From the IMG/VR virus record IMGVR_UViG_3300032322_001562, positions 4,769 through 68,768 of that record: 64,000 nt of DNA. One strand, written 5' to 3'. Shown here in pieces: positions 17,889 to 60,754 of the stretch. The first letter of the stretch is position 1; each line of letters opens with the position of its first letter. The DNA comes from a virus. The notes under the pieces are model-generated. The model did not search any database and was not told the origin of the DNA. It worked only from the letters and a program-made list of their open reading frames with translations. Position numbers and translations under genes: made by a program.

Positions 17889-18895
17889 TAGATTTTCTCC
17901 TTCGCAGAGTCTAGCAGATTTATCTTAAGGGTTTCTAGTGATTCTTCCCGTTGAGGGATGGCATTGAGGTAGGACGATCTCTGAGAATTCGCCAACATTT
18001 GACGCACCGCTGGGTCGTAGTCTTCTATGTCGTACGCCAGCGCCGCCCAGCTTGGGTCAAATCTGTAGGTGTCCTGCCAATACGTGGCTATGGGGGTTCC
18101 AGTATTCATGGCTTGGAACATCCTGTAATTCCACCAAGTCCCGACCTTGCGCTCCTGAGGTGGGATGATTAGCCCGATGCTGTTCCTGAGAACACCCAAA
18201 GCATAGTCATCGTCAGTTTTACGACCGGTTTTAGTTGGAATCCTAGGGAAGGACAAAATTTTCTCTAGCTCAGAAAGCCACGAATTCTTAGGATTTTCTA
18301 CAGCCCACAAATCTCTTCTACCAATTCTCGGTGGCTCTGGATTTATTAGATTCGCATCTAGGTTAATCCCTAGTAAGTCCTCCGAGCTCACAAAGCCGAG
18401 AATGTTAGAAACCTTCTCTGAGGTAATCCAAGGCATAGAAGGATATACAACTTGAGGCCAGACTCCAGCGTCCATATTATTCGCTGCCAGTTCTATAAAC
18501 TCTCGATTTTCATAAGCTTGTGCATATCCTTCTCTTTTTGAGTAGAAAGAGGTAAATAAGATTCCAGCGTCTCTTTTTAGGGCATTTACGCTGTTTTTGT
18601 ATTGCCACATCTGTGGGCTATCGACTACTAGCTTGAGCTTAGGTGAGTCAGACATCAAACCTAAAAGATGGAGAGCTCCAAATATTTTATTTGCGCTCAG
18701 GGAGGTCGGTGCAATAAATCCAAAAATAATTAAATCGAAGTTATCTAAGTCTTTTTTAGTCCAAGACAAACTAGGAGACGCCCAGATTACTTCTTCTGCA
18801 ATCTCAGAAAGAGCGTCAGATAAAACTGTAAAGAAGGTTGTGTTAGATGGTCGATTGCAATGGTTTGATCCCATGCCTGTAAATAGAACCTTCAT
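17888..18895 (-). CDS. Hypothetical protein (possible GT-B-like fold)
   Basis: 335-aa ORF with AAGGAG SD; MKVLFTG start and R.FQAM..GTPI resemble GT-B enzymes; assignment weak. Confidence 0.45.
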   Translation of the reverse strand: MKVLFTGMGSNHCNRPSNTTFFTVLSDALSEIAEEVIWASPSLSWTKKDLDNFDLIIFGFIAPTSLSANKIFGALHLLGLMSDSPKLKLVVDSPQMWQYKNSVNALKRDAGILFTSFYSKREGYAQAYENREFIELAANNMDAGVWPQVVYPSMPWITSEKVSNILGFVSSEDLLGINLDANLINPEPPRIGRRDLWAVENPKNSWLSELEKILSFPRIPTKTGRKTDDDYALGVLRNSIGLIIPPQERKVGTWWNYRMFQAMNTGTPIATYWQDTYRFDPSWAALAYDIEDYDPAVRQMLANSQRSSYLNAIPQREESLETLKINLLDSAKEKI

Positions 18896-18904
18896 GATTC
18901 TCCT

Positions 18905-18937
18905 TTAAAAGAAGGGGCACCTTTCGGTGCCCCTCCC
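18905..18937 (-). terminator. Intrinsic terminator after the SSB-like gene
   Basis: Minus strand AGGGGCACC-GAAA-GGTGCCCCT followed by TCTTTT. Confidence 0.75.
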
Positions 18938-18947
18938 ATTAATTTAT

Positions 18948-19508
18948 TTAAAAGGGCTCGCTTACATCTGACACTGGCGAAGCTGGGGCAGGAGCCGGAG
19001 CTGGAGCCGGTGCAGGTGCAGGGGCTGGAGCAGCTGCAACAGGGGCTGGTGCAGGAGCAGGTGCAGGAGCTGCAGCAGCCGATGGCTGTGCAACCTGCAC
19101 TGGATAGTAACGCTTGATTTCGTTGCTCTGAGTTCCGTTGTAAGTACGGGTTCCTAGAGTCGCACGGAAAGTGCGTCCTAGCAGAGCCTGCTCAATCTGA
19201 GCGTTAGTTGGGTTGGCACCGAAGAACTCTCTACCAAGGCCCAATGCTGATGCCTTCATAAAGAACATGTTTAGTGCCTTTGGATTGTCAGCTGTGATTA
19301 CCAGCTGATCCCATACGCGGCGGCGGTCGTGTGGACCACCCTGTACCTCGGTAGTAATTTTGAACATAGGCTTACCGCTCTGAGCAGTTACTGCCTGTGC
19401 CTCAATAACCTTGAGGTTGTAATCGCCGTCTGGTAGTGGCTGATAGTTGCTGGCTGAAGCAGCATCTCCGGCCTGAGCTACCAGATCGGACCAGTTTAGT
19501 GTTGACAT
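18948..19508 (-). CDS. DUF669-like single-stranded DNA-binding protein
   Basis: PLPDGDY...SGKPM..., Pro/Ala linker, acidic tail ending PF; adjacent to the ATPase and exonuclease. Confidence 0.75.
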   Translation of the reverse strand: MSTLNWSDLVAQAGDAASASNYQPLPDGDYNLKVIEAQAVTAQSGKPMFKITTEVQGGPHDRRRVWDQLVITADNPKALNMFFMKASALGLGREFFGANPTNAQIEQALLGRTFRATLGTRTYNGTQSNEIKRYYPVQVAQPSAAAAPAPAPAPAPVAAAPAPAPAPAPAPAPAPASPVSDVSEPF

Positions 19509-19519
19509 AAGTTGGCTCC

Positions 19520-20287
19520 TTAACTTGCCTTCTTAGTTGCTGAGGCCTTCTTCTCTCCGAAGACCATGTCTAGCATGCGCTCTACTCCTAGATCACCTTG
19601 CTCGACAATCTTACCTAGACGACCCTGAACTCGCTCGCCAGCCTCATACTCTGGAGTACGCTCAACATACATGCGGCGTACCTTGTATGGGGCTTGCAGT
19701 GGATCTGGATTTGGCATCGTCTCCACCGTTATGGCTCCTAGTAGGTCGTAAAAATATGGGGCCTGAATAGCTAGCTGACCCTGCAGGTAAGGACGGTAAA
19801 CGCCATCCTGACCCTTACGTGCCATAGCTGTCAGTACCACAGCCTCTAACGGCTGGGTTGGGTGCATCGTGAGGTCACGGAGGTCACGAAGTAGTGCACC
19901 CATGTGGCGAAGTAGTTCGCCCCACTGCTGCATCTTCATTTGCTCTGTGCCTGCGATGTTATCCATGCACTTGACCTGTAGCTCCGAAATGGAGTCAATG
20001 ATCAAGGACTTGAATTGGTGCTTACCTGACTGAAGCCACTGGAAAGCTTTGATGACTACGTCGTAGTCACGAACCTGGACAACAACAGTGTCCCAAGTTC
20101 CATCAGCCAGCGGCGGCTCCTGAGTCAGGGGGTCCCAGTACTTAACGTTGATTGGGAGGAATCTGTGTCCGCCCTCTACGTCGAGCATGAGACGTGGGTA
20201 TGGTGCCGTTACAGCAAAGGTTGATTTACCAACCTTAGACTCGCCATAAACCATAATTGTTAAACTGCGGTCTACTGTGTTTGACAT
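19520..20287 (-). CDS. AAA_24/Sak4-like recombination ATPase
   Basis: YGESKVGKST Walker A, LDVEGG, IIDSISE. Confidence 0.85.
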   Translation of the reverse strand: MSNTVDRSLTIMVYGESKVGKSTFAVTAPYPRLMLDVEGGHRFLPINVKYWDPLTQEPPLADGTWDTVVVQVRDYDVVIKAFQWLQSGKHQFKSLIIDSISELQVKCMDNIAGTEQMKMQQWGELLRHMGALLRDLRDLTMHPTQPLEAVVLTAMARKGQDGVYRPYLQGQLAIQAPYFYDLLGAITVETMPNPDPLQAPYKVRRMYVERTPEYEAGERVQGRLGKIVEQGDLGVERMLDMVFGEKKASATKKAS

Positions 20288-21217
20288 TTACTCACTTCCC
20301 TTCATCTCTTCGGTTTTGTAGTATCCGTACGGGTCGGCGACCTCGAACGCGTCGCTAATTGCAGCCTCTGCGGCGCTTCCGTCGTCAACCAACGGGCAAA
20401 TAGCGAAGAATTGGCACTTCCACTTGCAGTCTCTAGTAGGACGTGGATATGCATGCTTGTAGTGGCTCTCTCCAGCATCTAGAGCACTGCGAACCTTGAG
20501 AATATCTTCTAGGGTTCCTTCTAGTCTCTGGAAGAAAGAGCGAAGCGTAAATTGATTGTGGCGGACCTCAATCTGGTCATAGAACGGTGGCTTAGCGTAA
20601 GCGCCGCGCTTAACCTTGCGGAGCATTGTAAATATGCCACCCTCGGAACGCTCATTGCCAGTGTTCTGAGCCTCTTCCAAGACCATGTAGGTAAGAATCT
20701 GCTCATTCATGTGAGCAATCGATCCAAAGTCGGCGAACGAGCCACCAACAGTCTTGAAGTCACGGAACATACGCACGCCATCAATCTTGCGGCGAACACG
20801 CATGTCAATCTTTCCCTGAAGAGTCACACGGCCGTCCATCATTGGGCGCTCGATAATCTCTTCTGTAGAAATCATTTCCAGCTCAGCGTCAATACCCTCT
20901 AGTTCTACCCACTCTAGGTAGCCTTCTAGCATGACTCGGCCAAGCTCGGCTTCGGTTTCTAAAGTAGATGTGTCTCGGAAAGAGTCGTTCATCTTCTTCA
21001 TATCGGCTGCCACTAAATCAGCGTGAGCTTGGAGTAGTGGCTTACCTGTTGAGTAGTACTGGTCAAGTGCCTCGTGGATTCTTGATCCAAGAGCCAGTGC
21101 TCCAGTGAAGTCTTGAACCTTTGGCTGCAGCCTGCGGTAGTAAGTAAACCACCAGCGTCGGCGGCAATCCTTAAACGTTTGGATTTCAGAGTTAGAAATC
21201 CTTACTGGTTCTGTCAT
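20288..21217 (-). CDS. Cas4/RecB-like PD-(D/E)xK exonuclease
   Basis: S.S....FKDC.R, GS.IH, GKID, DFKT, C-terminal C.WKC.F..IC. Confidence 0.88.
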   Translation of the reverse strand: MTEPVRISNSEIQTFKDCRRRWWFTYYRRLQPKVQDFTGALALGSRIHEALDQYYSTGKPLLQAHADLVAADMKKMNDSFRDTSTLETEAELGRVMLEGYLEWVELEGIDAELEMISTEEIIERPMMDGRVTLQGKIDMRVRRKIDGVRMFRDFKTVGGSFADFGSIAHMNEQILTYMVLEEAQNTGNERSEGGIFTMLRKVKRGAYAKPPFYDQIEVRHNQFTLRSFFQRLEGTLEDILKVRSALDAGESHYKHAYPRPTRDCKWKCQFFAICPLVDDGSAAEAAISDAFEVADPYGYYKTEEMKGSE

Positions 21218-23427
21218 TATCGTCCGTTCTTTAGCATGTCTAGAAGCTTGGCTCTATCTTTGACTATCTGGTCAAAGTTGTCGGCTTTGACATCTAGAGC
21301 CTCTATAACTCTTTCTTCAATTGTTCCTTCGGTCACATAGTCGGTGATGAGAATCGAATCGTGAATCTCGGAGCCAATTCTGTGAACCCGGTCCAGGGCC
21401 TGCTTGTAGTCAACAAGTGACCATGGTCTCTGAAGCATAACAAGTCGACGTGCCGCTGTCAAGGTGACACCCACACCACCAGCCTGAGCAGTGAAAAGAA
21501 TCCACTTAATCTTTCCTGACTGGAAGTTATCGATAGCCTGCTGACGCTCCGACTCACTCTGAGCACCAGTAATTAGACCGTGCTTGATATCTTCCTTAGT
21601 CATGCGTGCACTAAGAAGCTCTATCAGTTGTCGAGATACGGCGCAGACAGCCACTTGGTCACCCTCGTAGTCTCCGTTTTTAATGTCATCCATCAGAGCA
21701 TCGACCTTACAGGATGGGTCAGACAATTTAATGCTTTCCTCTCCCGTTTCGGAAACTTCAATCTCGGCGTAAGCGCTGGCAAACTGAACCAACCTTAAAG
21801 TCTGAGTTAGAGGGTTTGGAGCAACCACAACATCTCCAGACGAGTCCGTGCTTCCATCTTTTTCCAGAAGGGTAATCATGTTTTCCAGCATCTGGTTGTA
21901 AGCCTTCTCTTGCTTAGCACCCATCTCAACGTCACGCCGTGAGTTGATTACTTCTGGCAGCCAAGGAAGAACTCTTGCTTTAAGCATGCGACGCATACGT
22001 GGGTTGATTCCAGCGTAGAACTCTTGTTCCATTTCTGGCTTAAGTCCTAGAACCAGCATTCCACCGAAAGCATTGACCATTGTGTTTACATAGCGATCAA
22101 TCCACTTAGTTCTTGTAGGCCACTCTGTCTCGTCAAGCCAGTGAAGAATTGGCCAAAGGTCAATTACATTGTTAGCAATTGGAGTACCGGTTAGTGCATA
22201 GCGAATATCTGCATGACCACTGGCTGCCCAAAGAGCTCTGGTCTGCTTGCTTTTTGGGTCCTTTGACCTGTGAATCTCGTCGGCTATGACTGACTTGAAA
22301 TCAATCATGTTCAGCTCACGTTTGTGAACCTCGCAGCGGGCCTCTGTGACCCTAGAGTCGTGGCCACCGCACTCGGTGCAGCGGGCTAGGGCAATAGACC
22401 CGTAGGGCTGAAGCCTAGAGTGGCCCCTGAGGGATTCCCAGTTGGCTACTACAACAGTTTTACGACAGGTACAACTTTGCTCTGTCGAGCCATAAGATAT
22501 CACGCTCTGCTTGATGGATTGCAGTGTTGCACTGTCTGCAGAGGACCCCCCTAATTTTTCCAGTGGAATGGCAGTGGTCGAGGACGTTAGCTGGTCTTGG
22601 GCATAAACCACATTTGTAGTCTGCATCAGAGAAATATTGCTCGTACTGATCGACGGTGATTCCGTAGCTTGTCTCGACGTGTCTACGTTTAGAGGCAATG
22701 GCTCGTTTTGACTTAGGCCACTGTTTACTATTAGCCCGCTGGCGCTCTCTATATTCTGGATTTCGCTCTCGGAGATCTTTTTCGTAGCAGCTTCTACATT
22801 TTTCTTTTGCGTAGACTCTAATCTCTGGGTGACACTGTGAATAGCGCATATATCAGAGTTTATCACGTCATCAAATGCCTTACGCCTCTGGGTGGCAGAC
22901 CCCTTGATAATCTGTACATCAACCCCGGGCCACCATTTATCAAATTCTCGCTGCCAGTTGCTCTTTAGAGTGTTGGGGCAGACAATTAGGGCCGGAAAAA
23001 CCTGCTCTCCGCGGTCATATAAGCGCTTTAGAGACCTTATAGCCTGGGCGGTCTTCCCCAGACCCGGTTCGTCCGCTAAAAGGGCTCTACGGGCCTTAGA
23101 GAGGAACTCTACGCCTGCCCTCTGGTGTGGGAAAAGGTCTTGGTCGCCATCCTCTAGGACTTCTACGTCCCTCAGGCTGTTGCTGGGGTCAATTCTGCTA
23201 ATTCTCTCGTTTTTAGCCCATTCGGCTAGCACTGGCCCGATTTCTAGGTCTTCCTTAAAGGTTGACCTTAGTGATAGGCAACCAGTCCAAGACAGAGGGA
23301 TAGTCCAAACCTGCTTTTCTTGGCTCCACTTAGAGCCTGGAAGTGCCCTGCAGATCTCTTTCAGCCTCCAGGGGGCATCAATAACGATTTTTTTGCTAGA
23401 GGGGTCTAGCTCTACCTTTACAGGCAT
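21217..23427 (-). CDS. SNF2-family helicase with a ~140-aa in-frame insertion
   Basis: LADEPGLGKT, DEIH, LTGTP, GGVGVTLT, QALDRVHRIG; low-complexity insert at residues ~186-325. Confidence 0.9.
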   Translation of the reverse strand: MPVKVELDPSSKKIVIDAPWRLKEICRALPGSKWSQEKQVWTIPLSWTGCLSLRSTFKEDLEIGPVLAEWAKNERISRIDPSNSLRDVEVLEDGDQDLFPHQRAGVEFLSKARRALLADEPGLGKTAQAIRSLKRLYDRGEQVFPALIVCPNTLKSNWQREFDKWWPGVDVQIIKGSATQRRKAFDDVINSDICAIHSVTQRLESTQKKNVEAATKKISESEIQNIESASGLIVNSGLSQNEPLPLNVDTSRQATESPSISTSNISLMQTTNVVYAQDQLTSSTTAIPLEKLGGSSADSATLQSIKQSVISYGSTEQSCTCRKTVVVANWESLRGHSRLQPYGSIALARCTECGGHDSRVTEARCEVHKRELNMIDFKSVIADEIHRSKDPKSKQTRALWAASGHADIRYALTGTPIANNVIDLWPILHWLDETEWPTRTKWIDRYVNTMVNAFGGMLVLGLKPEMEQEFYAGINPRMRRMLKARVLPWLPEVINSRRDVEMGAKQEKAYNQMLENMITLLEKDGSTDSSGDVVVAPNPLTQTLRLVQFASAYAEIEVSETGEESIKLSDPSCKVDALMDDIKNGDYEGDQVAVCAVSRQLIELLSARMTKEDIKHGLITGAQSESERQQAIDNFQSGKIKWILFTAQAGGVGVTLTAARRLVMLQRPWSLVDYKQALDRVHRIGSEIHDSILITDYVTEGTIEERVIEALDVKADNFDQIVKDRAKLLDMLKNGR
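22460..22849 (-). CDS. Endonuclease VII-family nuclease nested in an alternate frame of the helicase (putative homing endonuclease)
   Basis: YGIT..QY...CGLC...LDHCHSTGKIRGVLCRQCNTAI motif; N-terminal C-H...CxxC. Confidence 0.88.
   Translation of the reverse strand: MRYSQCHPEIRVYAKEKCRSCYEKDLRERNPEYRERQRANSKQWPKSKRAIASKRRHVETSYGITVDQYEQYFSDADYKCGLCPRPANVLDHCHSTGKIRGVLCRQCNTAIHQAERDILWLDRAKLYLS
22857..22865 (-). promoter_or_regulatory. Extended -10 (TG-a-TAAACT) for leaderless expression of the nested endonuclease
   Basis: TGnTAnnnT lies 7 nt before ATG 22849; no SD; same geometry at the free-standing endonuclease gene. Confidence 0.55.
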
Positions 23428-23502
23428 TCAACTCCGTTCGTCATTTCGTCTCTATATTATCAGAAAAAATTAGCCTAGGCGACTATTTTTTGATAATAAC
23501 TT

Positions 23503-23967
23503 TTATTGCAGCAATTTTACTGGTTTCCAGCCAGTTTTTACAAATCTCAGTAGGGCGTGTCGGATTGAGTCCAAAGCGTGACCCTCACCTCCACGATGCC
23601 AGTATTCTAGCTTCTTAAGCTTCTCGTTGTCAAACATGGCTTTAGCGTCGGCTGGCGACTGAAAGTAAATGTCATCCATTGGACGCCCGTTGTCCTTCAG
23701 GCACTGCTTAAGAATTCCTATTACCTCTAGCGAGTACGGAGCCTGGGAGTTTTTAACGGTCTGGGCGTTGATAGTAAATCGCTCACATACTACGTCTATG
23801 TGGTGTCGCTTTTCTGGTGCCCAGAGAGCTCCTCGAAAGACCTCGGCTACCTCTTCCTGCTGAAGCTCTTTAGACCAAATTAGAACTGGATCTTGATCCC
23901 TCTCCCGACTAAACAAAGAAACTCCGCTTGCTTTCCCGGGGTCTACAGATAAAACGTAATGAATCAC
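23503..23967 (-). CDS. RuvC-like/RNase H-fold resolvase
   Basis: GTG at 23967 overlaps the polymerase stop (GTGA); LSVDPG..SG, VVCERF, HALDS.RHA. Confidence 0.75.
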   Translation of the reverse strand: MIHYVLSVDPGKASGVSLFSRERDQDPVLIWSKELQQEEVAEVFRGALWAPEKRHHIDVVCERFTINAQTVKNSQAPYSLEVIGILKQCLKDNGRPMDDIYFQSPADAKAMFDNEKLKKLEYWHRGGEGHALDSIRHALLRFVKTGWKPVKLLQ

Positions 23968-25784
23968 TGGTATTTCGCTCCCCAGCTTTCTAGTGGACCG
24001 TCCACATCTGCGGTCAGGGGCACAGCCCAGCCCCTGCGGGTGGTCATGCATTCTCTAACTAACTTTTTAATTTCCTCGGCCTCGTTCCTTGGAGCATTCA
24101 ACACTATCTCATCATGAACTGGGACAATCAGCAAGTCAGTTAAATCCTGCTGGTCTAGTTTTATAAGGTTGGACTTAAAGACCTCAGCCGCGCCACCCTG
24201 AATAAGGTAATTCACAAGAGTATAGACACGGTCATCATCGCAGGGGAGTCTTCTTCCAGTCCACGTTTTCACATAGCCAACGTTCTCGGTCTCTAGAGTT
24301 ACCCTCCCCTGCTCTTCAATCTTTCTCTGGAACACCTGCATTCCAGGGAACCTGCTATCAAAAGCATTAGATACTGCACGCATCTGCTCTTCTGGCACAC
24401 CAGCAGTAAGTGCCTGTTTAGCAACACCTGCACCATACAGACGACCATAGACAACGCCCTTAATCAGTGCGCGTCGTTTGTCGGACTTTTGCATAGTCGG
24501 GTCTCTGTAGATTTCTCTACCAATTTCTGTGAATGGGTCAGAGCCAGTTGCATCGGCTTTCAGGAAAAGTTGAATAAGGTTGGGGTCTTCAGAAAGCGAA
24601 GCAAACATACGGAACTCAACCTGGTCAAGGTCGGAAGTGACAATTACGTGGTTTTCATCTTTAGGTAGGAATGCACGGCGGACAGTGTCATCGCCCTTAG
24701 GTAGGGTCTGAAGAGCGGGGTTCTGGATAGACATACGACCAGTGCGTGCTCCCATCGTGTTGACGGATGGGTGTACAAATCCATTGATGTTGTCATTTAT
24801 AAAGTTGGCAAAGTAGGTGCTAGCTAGCTTTCCGGCTTTTCTGTAGTTAAGAGTTGCCTCTGCTAGCTGCCTGACTTCTGGATTACCGTCACGAACTATT
24901 AGCTTCAGCTGGTCAGCTGATGCGGACTTTTGGCCAGACTCGGTTTTGTCAAATATTTCAAAGCCAAGCTGCTCGAACTTTTGAACTAGCTGCTGGTTGC
25001 TTCCAATAGAGATTCCATAAGTACTCTTAGCCCAGTCGCGAACTTGGTCAGTGTATTGAACAAGTTCGTCATATTTCTTCTGTGAGTACTCTAAATCTAG
25101 ACGAGCTCCGTTTAGCTCCATCTGCGTAACTATTCGACGGGTATTCATCTCTAGCTCGTATGGATAGCTGTAGGGCCGCCCGGGGGCGCAGTCCTGCCAA
25201 AACAGATGAAACAGCTTCATGGTCAGAACTGTGTCCAAAGCACCGTAAGCCCAGTAGGGCTGGAACTTGTATGGAACTGTGCCCCAGGTCCAGCCATTGT
25301 CTGTGAGTCCTCTGTCGAGGGCGTCCTGCAGATACGCAGCTAGCGGATCAATCTTTTGTTCAGTGAGCTTTTTAAGAGCCCCCGTGCCTAGCGGATCAAT
25401 AATTTTGGCCATAATCATGGTGTCATGAGCTCGGTGCCAAGGAATAGACCACTCGGACTGAATCTCGAACCACTTGGCTTCAAAGGCTATGTTGTGGCAA
25501 ACAATGGGGCCGTTAAATTTGTGCATTGCCTCGTAGAAAACGCCCTTCCAGTTCTCCCAAGGGATAGACCAGCCATGCATAGCATCGCCAACCTGAACTA
25601 GGCGCAGCTGGCCGTGCCAAGGAGAGAGTGCGTGTGCACGAGGATTGCCTGGAAGCTCTCCAGTTTCTGTGTCTATGGCAATTGCATTTAATGGACGCCG
25701 CTCACCCAGCCAACGCATAAAGTCGTTGGCGGCGTCTAAATTGTCGACCAGAGTGAATTGCACTCCATCGAGTCCGTTTGTCAT
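23964..25784 (-). CDS. polA: Family A DNA polymerase (3'-5' exonuclease + polymerase)
   Basis: DTETG, YGALD, ARTGRMS..NP.LQ, motif A DLDQVEFR, motif B KGVVYGRLYG, motif C VHDE. Confidence 0.95.
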   Translation of the reverse strand: MTNGLDGVQFTLVDNLDAANDFMRWLGERRPLNAIAIDTETGELPGNPRAHALSPWHGQLRLVQVGDAMHGWSIPWENWKGVFYEAMHKFNGPIVCHNIAFEAKWFEIQSEWSIPWHRAHDTMIMAKIIDPLGTGALKKLTEQKIDPLAAYLQDALDRGLTDNGWTWGTVPYKFQPYWAYGALDTVLTMKLFHLFWQDCAPGRPYSYPYELEMNTRRIVTQMELNGARLDLEYSQKKYDELVQYTDQVRDWAKSTYGISIGSNQQLVQKFEQLGFEIFDKTESGQKSASADQLKLIVRDGNPEVRQLAEATLNYRKAGKLASTYFANFINDNINGFVHPSVNTMGARTGRMSIQNPALQTLPKGDDTVRRAFLPKDENHVIVTSDLDQVEFRMFASLSEDPNLIQLFLKADATGSDPFTEIGREIYRDPTMQKSDKRRALIKGVVYGRLYGAGVAKQALTAGVPEEQMRAVSNAFDSRFPGMQVFQRKIEEQGRVTLETENVGYVKTWTGRRLPCDDDRVYTLVNYLIQGGAAEVFKSNLIKLDQQDLTDLLIVPVHDEIVLNAPRNEAEEIKKLVRECMTTRRGWAVPLTADVDGPLESWGAKYQ

Positions 25785-25802
25785 TTAAGTCTTTCGTTGT
25801 CG

Positions 25803-26273
25803 TTAAGGGATGATTTCGTAATTGTAGACGTTAGCGATGTTTTTGTCTACTATGGCTGCCTCCTGCATCAACCGCTGAGCGACACCCGTAAGGTAGCGTG
25901 CTCCGTTGTCATCATATTTGTATAGGGCTTCTAGCACAGCGTCAGCTTTGTCGCTTATCTGTGCCCAGTGGCGGTACTTCTCTGGAAATACTAGATCAAT
26001 CATGTCGTCTGGCTCACAGAGCTCGCACGGCACTGCGCCCATTTCCAGTTGAGTGTTGGACTTCTCGTTAAGACCGTACTTTTTTACTAGAGAGCAGGCG
26101 GCACCGTGAAATACAAGGGAGACGCCAGTACGAGAAAGAATGTAGGAGCCAGACTCGGTTTTGTAAAGCTCGAACTCGATCCAGCGGAAAGCGCCCCTAC
26201 GTAGGGAGCTTGATTTGGCAAGCAGGGTCCCGTTGAACTGGAGAACTCGGTCTCCGTCTTTTACTTCTATCAT
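25803..26273 (-). CDS. Hypothetical protein with putative Zn site
   Basis: RWIEFELYKT..G.Y, H...C, CELC.P; coupled to the tail gene. Confidence 0.65.
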   Translation of the reverse strand: MIEVKDGDRVLQFNGTLLAKSSSLRRGAFRWIEFELYKTESGSYILSRTGVSLVFHGAACSLVKKYGLNEKSNTQLEMGAVPCELCEPDDMIDLVFPEKYRHWAQISDKADAVLEALYKYDDNGARYLTGVAQRLMQEAAIVDKNIANVYNYEIIP

Positions 26274-58334: not shown

Positions 58335-58697
58335 TTAGTCCTTAATCGAATTCAAGGTTTGATACGGGTTCCATCCACGAAGCCTAGACCCGCAGCCGCA
58401 ACCAGTATCTTTCTTGAATGCTAGCATTTTTCCCGTCTTGGTGACAACCCTAGAATCAATTTTAGGGTCTTCAGACGGAAAGAACGTCTCATATGCTTCT
58501 CGAAATACGATCTGCGGACCTTCAGAGGAGTCTTTGGCGACCACGACATGCTCATCTGTAACTATCACCCTTGTAACTTCTAAGTATCTGGACCCTGGAG
58601 TAGGCTCGTAGCTTCGCAGCTGCGAAACGTCTTCGAGTTCTCCTGCAGCGATTGCTGCTAAGTGACAGGGAAACCTGTCCATAATGATTCTGGTCAC
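58335..58697 (-). CDS. Hypothetical protein
   Basis: Coupled ORF with GCGCGS.L motif. Confidence 0.65.
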   Translation of the reverse strand: MTRIIMDRFPCHLAAIAAGELEDVSQLRSYEPTPGSRYLEVTRVIVTDEHVVVAKDSSEGPQIVFREAYETFFPSEDPKIDSRVVTKTGKMLAFKKDTGCGCGSRLRGWNPYQTLNSIKD

Positions 58698-60118
58698 TAT
58701 CTTACCCTAAAAATTCTGCCTGCAGGCCGGCTGTTCGGACTAGTAACTCCTAGCTTACGGTCTGCAAAGCTTTTTGCTCGTATTTTTCCTCCGCTAAACC
58801 CTGGAGGCGGCTTAATCAGTAGTGCTGTGAGAGCGTGAACCAGTGCGTCCACTCGGTCAGGAGATTTTCCTTCGCCAGGAATCCACGAGTACATTTGAGA
58901 CTCTAGGTCTTGCAAATAGCCGACGTGGTGAACTCTCTGTTGTTCATAAGCTAGAACTGTAGGCTCAGCTCTTAGAGCTTTTCCATGCTTTGAGTGAACC
59001 TCAAGAACGTTAATAGTTGGGTCGATTGAGTTGATTGCGTTGCGTACAAGTGCGCCACCCTGATTAACTTCGGCAACGACGGGACAACCCCACTTACGAG
59101 CCATCTCCACAACTTTACGTGCCCAGGTATCTGGGGAACCATGAATTGTAGCGTCTTCAAGAACCCAAGCATTGCGCTTAAAGAGGTCTGGTTCTGCAGT
59201 CGCAGCGCAGACAACAATGCCACATTCGTCGCGGGGATTCTCAGCAACAGAAGGGTCCACGCCGATAATACGTAGCGGAGTAACAGGAGGGTAAGCCACG
59301 TGTCTAGCCGCTTCAACCATTTCTTCATTCCAAAGTGCTCCTTCAATGTCGTCGAGCATCTCTCCATAAAGTTCCTGACGTGCAAGCGTCGTGCCTTCGT
59401 AGACGCCCATGATTGTGTCAAGGTATGCCTGCGAAAGGTTTCCAGCATTGTCCAAAGTTGAACCCTTGGTAACAACAACCTTTGCCCCGTTCGGATTGTC
59501 GGTACGGGATTCTTCAATAAGTTTGTAAAGCAGCGGAACTCGCTTAGGGGTGGTGGTGCAGATGATCTGCGGATTGCGACCAAGACGAGTGCCAACACGA
59601 AGGTTGTCAAAGGCGGTCATACCTGCGGCATCTGGAGTCTGACGCCAAGCTGCAATCTCATCGCCCCAAGCATGCGTGAACTGCGGACCACGGAGTGAGT
59701 CAGGCTCGTCAGCAGTAAAAAGAGTGGCAGTGTTTCCATTGGGCCAAGTTAAGCGACGCTTCGACGGCTCGTAGTGTGGTTTTTCGGAAGGAGGAGAAAC
59801 TGCGATAATTCCAGACTCACCTTCAACGATAACGTCACGCACGTCAGCGGCGGTACGAGCAACGAGCGCGAAGCGGCGCTGTCCGTCTTTTGTAACTTTG
59901 GCCTGTTCGCGGACCCACTCGGATGCAAGGCGGGTTTTACCAAAACCACGACCAGCCAAAACTAGCCAGACGTTCCAGTCGCCATCTGGAGCTTTTTGCT
60001 CTGGACGCGCCCAGACGGACCAGTCCCAGACCAGAGACTCGGGATCCATCCCGTCAAGAATTGCTAGACGCTCCTCCTCTGGAAGGAGGGCGAGCTGTTC
60101 CATAATGCTTTTGCCCAT
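58697..60118 (-). CDS. terL: Terminase large subunit
   Basis: AGRGFGKT, LRGPQF..AW.DE, TTTP, RQELYGE, GVDP, SPDRVDALV. Confidence 0.95.
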   Translation of the reverse strand: MGKSIMEQLALLPEEERLAILDGMDPESLVWDWSVWARPEQKAPDGDWNVWLVLAGRGFGKTRLASEWVREQAKVTKDGQRRFALVARTAADVRDVIVEGESGIIAVSPPSEKPHYEPSKRRLTWPNGNTATLFTADEPDSLRGPQFTHAWGDEIAAWRQTPDAAGMTAFDNLRVGTRLGRNPQIICTTTPKRVPLLYKLIEESRTDNPNGAKVVVTKGSTLDNAGNLSQAYLDTIMGVYEGTTLARQELYGEMLDDIEGALWNEEMVEAARHVAYPPVTPLRIIGVDPSVAENPRDECGIVVCAATAEPDLFKRNAWVLEDATIHGSPDTWARKVVEMARKWGCPVVAEVNQGGALVRNAINSIDPTINVLEVHSKHGKALRAEPTVLAYEQQRVHHVGYLQDLESQMYSWIPGEGKSPDRVDALVHALTALLIKPPPGFSGGKIRAKSFADRKLGVTSPNSRPAGRIFRVR

Positions 60119-60218: not shown

Positions 60219-60656
60219 TTAGGTGTTGGATATATATCTAAGAAGATTTTTTATGTTGTCAATACTATCACCTAAAAGCCCTAGGGAAGTATTGCACTGA
60301 GAGCATAAGACCCCACGCACGCACTTGCCGCATGAATAACTGCTAGGACAGCACTCATGGTTATGATCAATGTTAGTAGCAAGTCTAGAAAGGCACGAGT
60401 GGCAATTACCGCCGTGAATGTTTAGTAAATTTTGGTACTGATTTTGAGTAATTCCGTGCTTTTTCCAATTTGGCTTATAGTAAGTATTCATTCTTACTTT
60501 TTCAGCCTTTTTGTCTGGATTGTTTGCATAATAGCTAATCATGTAGTCAGTGTGACAACGTTTACACACATTGGCATATCCGCTTTTATTAGCCTTCTGC
60601 TTACGAAAAAAATTTAAATCTTTCTCGACATTGCATTTAGTGCATACTTTTTTCAT
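60219..60656 (-). CDS. Free-standing endonuclease VII-family (homing) endonuclease
   Basis: CTKC...CKRC N-terminus; HGIT...CHSC...IDHNH.CC...CGKCVRGVLCSQCN..LG; AT-rich; ATG 60656 lies 6 nt after TG-t-TACACT. Confidence 0.85.
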   Translation of the reverse strand: MKKVCTKCNVEKDLNFFRKQKANKSGYANVCKRCHTDYMISYYANNPDKKAEKVRMNTYYKPNWKKHGITQNQYQNLLNIHGGNCHSCLSRLATNIDHNHECCPSSYSCGKCVRGVLCSQCNTSLGLLGDSIDNIKNLLRYISNT

Positions 60657-60711
60657 GTTAACAGTGTAACACGTCTTGTTAAATAGCATTTGAGTCAGAG
60701 GGAAGTCTTTG

Positions 60712-60754
60712 AAAAAATATAACACCCCCGGGGAGTATTCCCATCGGGGGTGTT
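60712..60754 (-). terminator. Intrinsic terminator
   Basis: AACACCCCCG...CGGGGGTGTT stem followed by ATATTTTTT on the minus strand. Confidence 0.8.

What the first reader, a model, noticed from the sequence alone, without database searches (positions are those of the whole stretch)
22455..22875. Endonuclease VII gene overprinted inside the SNF2 helicase, with both frames open
Seen: the helicase reads without a stop through ~140 aa of S/T/Q-rich, non-helicase sequence between QRRKAF and VVVANWESL. The same DNA, offset by 2 nt on the same strand, encodes a complete 129-aa endonuclease VII with intact CxxC, DH and CxxCN motifs. The insert ends coincide with the nested ORF plus a TG-n-TAAACT element 7 nt before its ATG. 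There are no intein motifs (no terminal HN) and no room for an intron core. About 130 stop-free codons by chance is roughly (61/64)^130, about 0.002, so both frames look selected. Inference: a splicing-free homing element that avoids killing its host gene by being translated as a tolerated loop while carrying its own leaderless promoter.
Basis: partly seen in the sequence, partly recalled or inferred. Interest (0 to 1): 0.93.

Follow-up and report, generated by a model that had tools for sequence, protein, structure and literature searches.

The report
Hidden homing endonuclease inside phage helicase
A small selfish DNA-cutting gene sits in a shifted reading frame inside a lake phage's helicase gene, which stays readable and is probably translated straight through it as an extra loop; this is a clean, recently mobile example of a layout first described in 2025.

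Summary
A 736-aa SNF2 helicase ORF (21217-23427, minus strand) contains a complete 129-aa endonuclease VII ORF (22460-22849), same strand, offset 2 nt. The helicase frame has no stop.

Near-identical relatives in IMG/VR (L004 and L005, 94% and 92% nt identity) lack exactly 402 nt (134 codons). That equals the nuclease ORF plus about 12 nt. A second sample of the same study holds both the filled and the empty allele.

Identity to L004 is about 100% outside the insert. It falls to 68-85% for about 80 nt upstream and about 330 nt downstream of it. I read this as a co-conversion tract from a diverged donor, so the element arrived by homing-type recombination.

I found no intron signal (Rfam, RNA fold z -0.38) and no intein signal (Pfam, no terminal HN).

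- 3.8% given the protein and genome codon usage
- 0 of 103 blocks in other genes
- 0 of 11 free-standing EndoVII genes

The leaderless-promoter idea is untested.

The kind is already published (ShiLan domain, Arsenault et al. 2025), and this scan has noted several similar cases on other DNA. This is a new member of a known kind.

The parts
21217..23427 (-). SNF2-family helicase ORF, 736 aa, uninterrupted. It lies in a PolA / RuvC-like / helicase / RecB-like module.
   Evidence: Pfam PF00176 + PF00271; phmmer to yeast Snf2 6iy2, 6e-33. The same gene order is seen in DSL-LC01, Pumpernickel and A3Wally.
22457..22858 (-). The inserted element: 402 nt net (134 helicase codons). Junctions are good to about +/-6 nt because the flanks are diverged. 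blastn leaves 22445-22877 unaligned against 31 nt of the empty allele.
   Evidence: 2211 against 1809 nt; 433 nt replace 31 nt; best breakpoints at helicase nt 560-571; an empty-allele contig skips 495 nt with 93 between, net 402.
22460..22849 (-). Nested endonuclease VII (His-Me finger) gene, 129 aa, ATG to TAA, offset 2 nt from the helicase frame.
   Evidence: Pfam PF02945 2.6e-16. PHROG 2914 'endonuclease VII' 1.1e-31 over residues 4-128. Invariant C80, C83, D91, H92, C104, C107 and N108 are kept. AF2 pLDDT 86.6. Top Foldseek hits are T4 EndoVII 1e7l, 2qnf and 1en7, prob 1.00.
22857..22865 (-). TGATAAACT, an extended -10-like motif 7 nt upstream of the nuclease ATG. There is no Shine-Dalgarno-like 4-mer in between. 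Function is untested.
   Evidence: Read from the sequence. A comparable motif precedes 10 of 1,621 ATGs. The sigma-70 scan did not call it.
22859..22947 (-). 5' co-conversion tract. Helicase codons here are 68-93% identical to L004, where the rest of the 5' part is about 100% identical.
   Evidence: identity profile. (pS 0.77, pN 0.07, pN/pS 0.09).
22126..22456 (-). 3' co-conversion tract. Helicase codons are 68-92% identical to L004, returning to 97-100% beyond it. It includes the altered target codons KTVVVANWE (empty alleles have A-Q/D-V-Y-V/I-I/M-N-W-E).
   Evidence: (pS 0.53, pN 0.07, pN/pS 0.14). (of 761 columns invariant in 10 empty alleles, the window differs at 6, all at the junction).

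Best explanation
The element is a free-standing homing-endonuclease cassette, an EndoVII/His-Me-finger gene plus about 12 nt. It sits in a naturally length-variable surface loop of ATPase lobe 1 of a freshwater actinophage SNF2 helicase, between the conserved RRK helix and the VxNWESL strand.

Shown:
- The cassette is absent from helicases that are 94% identical.
- Filled and empty alleles coexist in one sample.
- The flanks carry a diverged gene-conversion tract.
- The nuclease ORF is intact.
- The host frame has no stop.

Inferred:
- The nuclease cuts the empty allele near the VYVINWES codons, and repair copies the cassette together with flanking donor helicase sequence.
- The changed flanks protect the filled allele from being cut.
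- Nothing is spliced. The helicase is made as one 736-aa chain with a 134-aa Ser/Thr/Gln-rich, probably disordered, loop.
- Only stop-free, in-frame insertions of this kind survive in a needed gene, which explains the open frame.

How the nuclease is translated is open. It has no SD. The candidates are a leaderless transcript from the TGATAAACT motif or weak internal initiation.
For: - Empty alleles. All listed phage relatives cover the query in 2 pieces without the insert (40 of 40 listed rows). DSL-LC01, Pumpernickel and A3Wally have 0-12 residues at the site. 11 IMG/VR loci with 74-97% aa identity have 1791-1824-nt matches.
- Exact size. 402 nt = 390-nt ORF + 12 nt.
- Population. Run X2 holds a 632-nt contig identical to the filled allele and also a contig of the empty allele.
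- Co-conversion. Identity to L004 is 0.97-1.00 at helicase nt 1-480 and mostly 0.93-1.00 (one window 0.90) beyond nt 1300. It is 0.68-0.85 next to the insert. pN/pS in the tracts is 0.09 and 0.14, as expected for a working donor helicase.
- Target change. All 6 window-private changes at 761 otherwise invariant columns lie at the junction.
- Nuclease intact.
- No intron. Rfam finds nothing relevant at E<=1 in 21000-24000. The RNA fold z-score is -0.38.
- No intein. The host-frame insert has no Pfam or PHROG family. Its ends read DD|VINSD and SCTCR|KT, with no HN.
- Open frame is unusual.
- Loop position. The insert falls between Snf2 residues 187 and 214.
- Same design published for ShiLan and Pacc40.
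Against: - There is no expression, protein or cleavage data. No RNA run was listed.
- No second, independent lineage with this insert was found. The host-frame insert matched only the window's own protein in 5.8 billion sequences. The nuclease has no relative above 55% identity. So dN/dS in the two frames could not be measured and the donor is unsampled.
- Given this protein's sequence, an open host frame has a 4-15% chance, so chance plus survivorship is enough without ongoing selection.
- The helicase model was poor throughout (mean pLDDT 44.9) and cannot show that the loop is tolerated.
- Outside the probable source sample, only the 3' junction is supported by a contig.
Confidence: 0.7

Rival explanations
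1. The insertion crippled or killed the helicase, and the open frame is luck. The variant persists because homing drives it, or because the helicase is dispensable or supplied by co-infecting phages.
For: - Chance of an open frame given the protein is 4-15%.
- Only one lineage is known.
- In X2 the empty allele is also present.
- The helicase model gives no evidence that the loop is tolerated.
Against: - In X1 the only contig laid is the filled allele, within a long contig. Contigs can drop minor variants, though.
- The rest of the ORF is intact and 97-100% identical to empty alleles.
- The insert sits at a loop that varies in length among relatives.
- 0 of 11 free-standing EndoVII genes and 0 of 103 gene blocks are open in this frame.
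- The helicase is kept in the same module in all relatives examined.
Confidence: 0.15
2. The insert is removed by an unrecognised splicing mechanism, either a degenerate or novel ribozyme or an atypical intein, so the mature helicase lacks it.
For: - No RNA or protein data exist.
- The first host-frame residues of the insert (VINSD) echo the first residues after the site in empty alleles (VINWE). The ShiLan authors discussed a similar echo as a possible intron-like trait.
Against: - No Rfam family matches.
- Folding is no better than shuffles (z -0.38).
- Only about 12 nt lie outside the ORF.
- The host-frame insert has no Pfam or PHROG match, no C/S/T at its start, and no HN at its end.
- It is 42% S+T+Q+N, against 19% in the rest of the helicase.
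Confidence: 0.07
3. The nested EndoVII is a housekeeping junction resolvase or packaging nuclease of the phage, not a homing enzyme, and it landed here by illegitimate recombination.
For: T4 EndoVII is a resolvase (top fold matches). The record has two more EndoVII-like genes.
Against: - Relatives that are 94% identical lack it.
- A RuvC-like resolvase gene already lies next door (annotated in relatives).
- The flanking conversion tract and the junction-restricted changes fit homing.
Confidence: 0.05
4. Assembly artefact: a chimeric metagenome contig joins an unrelated EndoVII gene into the helicase.
For: The window is a metagenome-assembled virus record, about 40% complete.
Against: - Logan contigs of two runs carry it. 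X1 spans the whole stretch with 0 differences, and X2 spans the 3' junction with 0 differences in 632 nt.
- The insert is an exact multiple of 3 with clean collinear flanks.
Confidence: 0.02

Closest known systems
ShiLan domain and the Pacc40 gp60 insertion: 'hidden' out-of-frame HNH endonucleases in mycobacteriophage DNA methylase genes (Arsenault, Gosselin, Gogarten, Genes 2025, PMC11855218). I read the abstract and outline, passages, and the whole Discussion.
   Same: - The insert leaves the host frame stop-free.
- The nuclease ORF is in another frame of the same strand and fills nearly the whole insert. In ShiLan the start is 18 bp in and the TAA lies in the last 4 bases. Here the ATG is about 10 nt in and the TAA about 3-4 nt from the end.
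- No intein or intron is detectable.
- The host-frame product is unassignable and predicted to be a loop.
- There is no RBS, and leaderless initiation has been proposed.
- Distribution is sporadic and homing-like.
- Pacc40 gp60 also has a helicase domain.
   Different: - The nuclease here matches the EndoVII Pfam family (PF02945); the authors call theirs HNH.
- The host gene is a conserved SNF2 helicase in the replication module, whereas the authors argue their methylase is dispensable.
- The host is an uncultured freshwater actinophage.
- This case adds a clear co-conversion tract and filled and empty alleles in one sample.
- I did not compare it by sequence with ShiLan.
[quoted passage not shown]
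   Same: An EndoVII-like homing gene is written in another frame of the same strand inside a phage replication or structural gene, while the host frame stays open.
   Different: In those cases the host-frame sequence is an intein with splicing blocks that removes itself. Here there is no Hint domain, no terminal motifs, and no room for them: 134 aa, almost all overlapped by the nuclease ORF.
Free-standing phage homing endonucleases that split genes, such as mobE in nrdA of phage Aeh1. This is recalled. Gibb and Edgell 2007 is cited in the passage, and the T4 review PMC2988022 was seen only in a search listing.
   Same: A free-standing His-Me/HNH-type gene lies inside a conserved phage DNA-metabolism gene, with intron-less homing and co-conversion of the flanks.
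   Different: Those insertions break the host gene into two separately translated pieces. Here the host ORF stays single and is read through.
T4 endonuclease VII (gp49; PDB 1e7l, 1en7, 2qnf)
   Same: Same Pfam family and fold, with the zinc-binding CxxC...CxxC and the catalytic D-H...N.
   Different: T4 gp49 is a structure-specific junction resolvase of 157 aa. Identity is 26-29% over 84-86 columns. The role here is inferred to be site-specific homing.

Membership tests
Endonuclease VII / His-Me finger (Pfam PF02945) | Profile match above the curated cut-off | tested here: met
   59.7 bits against a cut-off of 23.6, profile positions 2-80 of 82. PHROG 2914, 1.1e-31.
Endonuclease VII / His-Me finger (Pfam PF02945) | Zinc ligands CxxC...CxxC and catalytic Asp-His...Asn | tested here: met
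   C80, C83, D91, H92, C104, C107 and N108 are invariant in 18 of 18 aligned sequences, the window's included. The residue roles are recalled from the T4 EndoVII literature.
Endonuclease VII / His-Me finger (Pfam PF02945) | Fold like T4 EndoVII | tested here: met
   AF2 pLDDT 86.6. Foldseek ranks 1-3 are 1e7l, 2qnf and 1en7, prob 1.00, E about 1e-3, TM 0.37-0.38 over 84-86 columns.
Endonuclease VII / His-Me finger (Pfam PF02945) | Nuclease activity | not testable with these tools
   Needs a purified protein.
Homing endonuclease gene (free-standing, intron-less homing) | Sporadic presence, with empty alleles at the same site in close relatives | tested here: met
   L004 and L005 are 94% and 92% nt identical without the 402 nt. 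Both alleles occur in run X2.
Homing endonuclease gene (free-standing, intron-less homing) | Co-conversion of flanking host sequence | tested here: met
   The identity trough of 0.68-0.85 is confined to about 80 nt on the 5' side and about 330 nt on the 3' side of the insert.
Homing endonuclease gene (free-standing, intron-less homing) | The nuclease cuts the empty allele but not the filled one | not testable with these tools
   Indirect evidence only. The window differs from 10 empty alleles at invariant columns only at the junction.
ShiLan-type read-through insertion with a hidden out-of-frame endonuclease | The insert is a multiple of 3 and stop-free in the host frame | tested here: met
   402 nt, 0 stops.
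ShiLan-type read-through insertion with a hidden out-of-frame endonuclease | The nuclease ORF, in another frame of the same strand, spans nearly the whole insert | tested here: met
   390 of 402 nt, offset 2.
ShiLan-type read-through insertion with a hidden out-of-frame endonuclease | No splicing at the RNA or protein level; the host protein keeps the loop | tested here: inconclusive
   No intron or intein signal, but also no RNA or protein data. The helicase model is too poor to judge.
Intein | Hint-domain splicing blocks; Cys/Ser/Thr at the first residue; His-Asn at the end followed by Cys/Ser/Thr | tested here: not met
   The host-frame insert has no Pfam or PHROG family. It starts VINSD and ends SCTCR/KT, without HN. 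The motif rules are recalled and also stated in the paper passages.
Group I / group II intron | Conserved ribozyme core | tested here: not met
   No Rfam family at E<=1 apart from a chance lncRNA hit elsewhere. About 12 nt lie outside the ORF. Fold z-score -0.38.
SNF2-family helicase (the host gene) | SNF2-related N-terminal domain plus the helicase C-terminal domain | tested here: met
   PF00176 2.1e-35 in 2 stretches split by the insert. PF00271 1.1e-17. Yeast Snf2 6e-33.

The most novel reading that the evidence does not exclude
Read-through homing cassettes may be a dedicated and recurrent life-style. In this reading they are EndoVII/HNH genes whose codon choice and amino-acid sequence are kept stop-free in the host frame. 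They carry their own extended -10 promoter that gives a leaderless mRNA. They repeatedly colonise the same lobe-1 loop of phage SNF2 helicases and other replication genes, so conserved genes can be invaded with no ribozyme or intein. The translated loop could even gain a role; Cys/His residues sit at both of its ends.
Probability: 0.25. Interest if true: 0.55.

Novelty: new member of a known kind. Interest (0 to 1): 0.38.

Why it matters
Homing endonucleases were long thought to need an intron or intein, or a position between genes, to avoid killing their host. This locus is a clear natural example of the third route described in 2025: living inside a gene and simply being translated through.

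It extends that route in three ways:
- to the EndoVII Pfam family (PF02945)
- to a conserved replication-module helicase
- to uncultured freshwater actinophages

It also gives evidence for recent mobility: empty and filled alleles in one sample, a bounded conversion tract, and changed target bases. The empty-allele site, the nuclease ORF and the two helicase forms are all defined, so the key experiments could be set up directly.

There is a practical point too. Gene callers miss such nested genes. The nuclease was absent as a called protein from the 5.8-billion-protein set.

Tried and rejected
Searches for a second carrier of the insert all failed:
- EndoVII protein against IMG/VR: 0 relatives.
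- An exact 26-mer against IMG/VR: 0.
- EndoVII protein against JGI metagenome contigs: only a 33% relative, L030.
- Host-frame insert against 5.8 billion proteins: only the window's own protein P0019.
- Word-based search: best hit 42% identity.
- Full HMMER scan of 1.84 billion representatives: 56,869 hits at E<=0.001 and none at E<=1e-30. The top-scoring hit (P0020) is 47% identical and the highest identity is 55% over part of the protein (P0031).

As a result, dN/dS in the two frames and a test for stops in relatives' host frames could not be done.

RNA evidence: no RNA holder was listed by the look-up of sequencing runs, so splicing and expression remain untested.

The megablast of the helicase against the phage collection found no match. 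The tblastn search did.

The helicase structure had mean pLDDT 44.9 with only 8 sequences. The insert (192-321) is below 50, but so are residues 333-572. I draw no conclusion on loop tolerance.

Codon-usage log-odds did not separate the frames. The values were -0.14 for the EndoVII frame and -0.06 for the helicase frame, against +0.25 for the helicase outside the insert. The insert is compositionally foreign in both frames.

The sigma-70 scan found no promoter at the nuclease start.

Contig depths were not used to rank the alleles.

Intein, intron, artefact and resolvase readings were considered and rated low (see the rival explanations).

Supplementary files of the papers were not opened. The survey tables and repository of PMC11855218 may list helicase-hosted cases that I could not see.

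Literature searches for this exact combination returned only the ShiLan/Pacc40 paper and the intein preprint as relevant.
Full report
WHAT IS THERE

The window is most of a 68.8-kb IMG/VR virus record, estimated about 40% complete. On the minus strand lies a replication module: DNA polymerase I (23964-25784), a RuvC-like gene (23503-24051), a 736-aa ORF (21217-23427) and a RecB/Cas4-like nuclease (20288-21217). The named actinophages DSL-LC01, Pumpernickel and A3Wally have the same gene order.

The 736-aa ORF is an SNF2-family helicase. It matches PF00176 at 2.1e-35 in two stretches, PF00271 at 1.1e-17, and yeast Snf2 at 6e-33.

Inside it, on the same strand and offset by 2 nt, is a 129-aa ORF (22460-22849). 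Evidence that this ORF is an intact endonuclease VII gene:
- It matches Pfam Endonuclease_7 at 2.6e-16 and PHROG 2914 'endonuclease VII' at 1.1e-31 over residues 4-128.
- It keeps every invariant column of an 18-sequence family alignment, including CxxC, DH and CxxCN.
- It folds with pLDDT 86.6.
- Its best structural matches are the three T4 endonuclease VII entries.

IT IS AN INSERTION, AND A RECENT ONE

- tblastn against 50,697 phage records found 1,821 records with the helicase. All 40 listed rows match in two pieces that leave out the middle.
- In a protein alignment, DSL-LC01, Pumpernickel and A3Wally have 0-12 residues where the window has about 137. The site is a naturally length-variable loop.
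- IMG/VR gave 22 related loci. L004 and L005 are 97% identical in protein, with matches of 1806 nt.
- At the DNA level they are 93.9% and 92.3% identical. Their helicase gene is 1809 nt against 2211 nt, a difference of exactly 402 nt or 134 codons.
- blastn shows the window collinear with both loci at 95-98% across 18220-26273, except that 22445-22877 (433 nt) replaces 31 nt.
- The best-fitting breakpoints put the 402 nt at about 22457-22858. That is the 390-nt ORF plus about 10 nt before the ATG and about 3 nt after the TAA.

POPULATION EVIDENCE

Logan contigs of four coded runs were laid on 21900-23400.
- X1 is the probable source. It has one contig spanning the whole stretch with no difference.
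- X2 is a second sample of the same study. It has a 632-nt contig identical to 22159-22790, which crosses the 3' junction. It also has a 519-nt contig that skips 495 nt with 93 other letters in between (net 402), which is the empty allele. Filled and empty alleles therefore coexist in X2.
- X3 and X4, from other studies, covered only the flanks.

SIGNATURE OF HOMING

The sliding identity between the window and L004 follows this pattern:
- 0.97-1.00 over helicase nt 1-480
- 0.83, then 0.68-0.73, next to the insert
- 0.77-0.92 up to about nt 1300
- 0.97-1.00 at nt 1273-1782, then mostly 0.93-0.98 (one window 0.90) to the end of the gene

The differences in the two tracts are mostly synonymous. 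pN/pS is 0.09 in the 5' tract and 0.14 in the 3' tract, with pS 0.77 and 0.53, against pS 0.009 in the identical 5' part. So the cassette came in together with about 80 nt of upstream and about 330 nt of downstream helicase sequence. The donor allele was a diverged helicase allele whose flanking sequence had evolved under purifying selection. None of the ten empty alleles I had is closer to the tract, so the donor lineage is unsampled.

Of 761 alignment columns invariant in all ten empty alleles, the window differs at six, all at the junction. Three of the six (nt 606-610) are columns where MAFFT aligned 15 nt of the empty allele against insert DNA. The others change conserved codons, for example V-I/M-NWES to V-A-NWES. 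This fits loss of the nuclease's own target, but that is an inference.

NOT AN INTRON AND NOT AN INTEIN, AS FAR AS COMPUTATION CAN TELL

- Rfam at E<=1 over 21000-24000 gave only a chance lncRNA hit elsewhere.
- The 461-nt region folds no better than shuffles (z -0.38).
- Only about 12 nt lie outside the ORF.
- The host-frame translation has no Pfam or PHROG family.
- It is 42% S+T+Q+N, against 19% in the rest of the helicase.
- It begins VINSD and ends SCTCR-KT, with no His-Asn.

Against yeast Snf2, the insert falls between residues 187 and 214 of the solved chain, after the conserved RRK and before the strand that leads to motif II. The AlphaFold model of the whole helicase was poor everywhere (mean pLDDT 44.9), so I draw nothing from it.

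HOW UNUSUAL IS THE OPEN HOST FRAME?

Better nulls:
- Given the nuclease protein, resampling synonymous codons leaves the host frame open in 3.8% of 20,000 trials with genome codon usage, 3.4% with uniform usage, and 15% when the gene's own codons are permuted. Only 11 dipeptides are at risk.
- At those sites the gene uses safe codons that are rare in this genome: CTC (relative use 0.09) at three Leu sites and GTC (0.15) at two Val sites.
- In 41 other ORFs of the window, 134-codon windows in the same relative frame are open in 81 of 11,199 cases. These most likely come from one gene, the terminase ORF, which holds the only open run of 134 codons or more. 0 of 103 non-overlapping blocks are open.
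- Ten free-standing EndoVII genes from named phages and the window's own paralogue have 2-10 stops in that frame. None of the 11 is open.

So the open frame is not a property of the family and is unlikely by chance. But survivorship is enough to explain it, since only stop-free in-frame insertions in a needed gene persist. Ongoing selection on both frames is not shown.

EXPRESSION OF THE NUCLEASE

- The 18 nt before the ATG hold none of the five SD-like 4-mers I searched for (GGAG, GAGG, AGGA, AAGG, GGGA); read from the upstream sequence printed.
- A TGNTANNNT motif 5-9 nt upstream occurs at 10 of 1,621 ATGs in the window.
- The standard promoter scan did not call the site.

A leaderless transcript is plausible for an actinobacterial host. 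The ShiLan authors raise the same idea. It remains a guess.

COMPARISON WITH WHAT IS KNOWN

Arsenault, Gosselin and Gogarten (Genes 2025, PMC11855218) describe the ShiLan domain. I read the abstract and outline, passages, and the whole Discussion. The ShiLan domain is an insertion in a mycobacteriophage methylase that is stop-free in the host frame and has no intein or intron features. [quoted passage not shown] It is predicted to form a loop, and leaderless initiation is proposed. A second case, Pacc40 gp60, is a protein with a helicase domain and a methylase domain.

The same group's preprint reports inteins with an out-of-frame EndoVII-like endonuclease (passages read).

My four literature searches found no report of an EndoVII gene read through inside an SNF2 helicase.

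This scan has already noted several cases of the same kind on other DNA, including SNF2 helicases. I did not check those notes, and they are not evidence.

VERDICT

My confidence by claim:
- mobile insertion: about 0.9
- read-through without splicing: about 0.7
- leaderless promoter: about 0.3

It is a new member of a known kind. Its value is as an unusually clean example with population and co-conversion evidence.

Noticed in passing
window 60219-60725 (-), next to 58697-60118 (-): A second, free-standing EndoVII-like gene (168 aa, 31% identical to the nested one) lies directly upstream of a 473-aa ORF that I took, from its sequence alone, to be the large terminase subunit. That name comes from no call. 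A third EndoVII-like gene (33% identical) lies outside the window at G000:C1:3508-3822. The 168-aa gene has 10 stops in its +1 frame.
   Followed up: partly
window 58972-59610 (-): The 473-aa ORF (58697-60118) has the longest stop-free run in the +1 frame of any gene in the window: 214 codons, listed as a 212-aa Leu/Arg-rich ORF. It was not searched against any family and looks like chance.
   Followed up: partly
window 22844-22868 (-) against the empty alleles: The first host-frame residues of the insert (V-I-N-S-D) echo the first residues after the insertion site in empty alleles (V-I-N-W-E). By eye, 9 of 15 bases match. The ShiLan paper describes a similar echo. It could be microhomology used at the original insertion, or chance.
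   Followed up: partly
window 22290-22370 (-), helicase residues about 349-368: All relatives share a Cys/His-rich segment (RCxECGGHD...RCEVH) between the insertion site and motif II that yeast Snf2 lacks. It may be a family-specific zinc ribbon.
   Followed up: no
window 22845-22860 and 22457-22475 (-), host frame: In the helicase frame the loop begins with DICAIH and ends with SCTCRK, so Cys/His residues sit at both ends. Another first-reader note on this stretch (e1-6168091) suggests a zinc clasp. This is untested.
   Followed up: no
window 21217-22125 (-): The 3' third of the helicase gene differs from L004 more than the 5' part does (pS 0.12 against 0.009). This suggests a further, older recombination boundary within the gene.
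   Followed up: no
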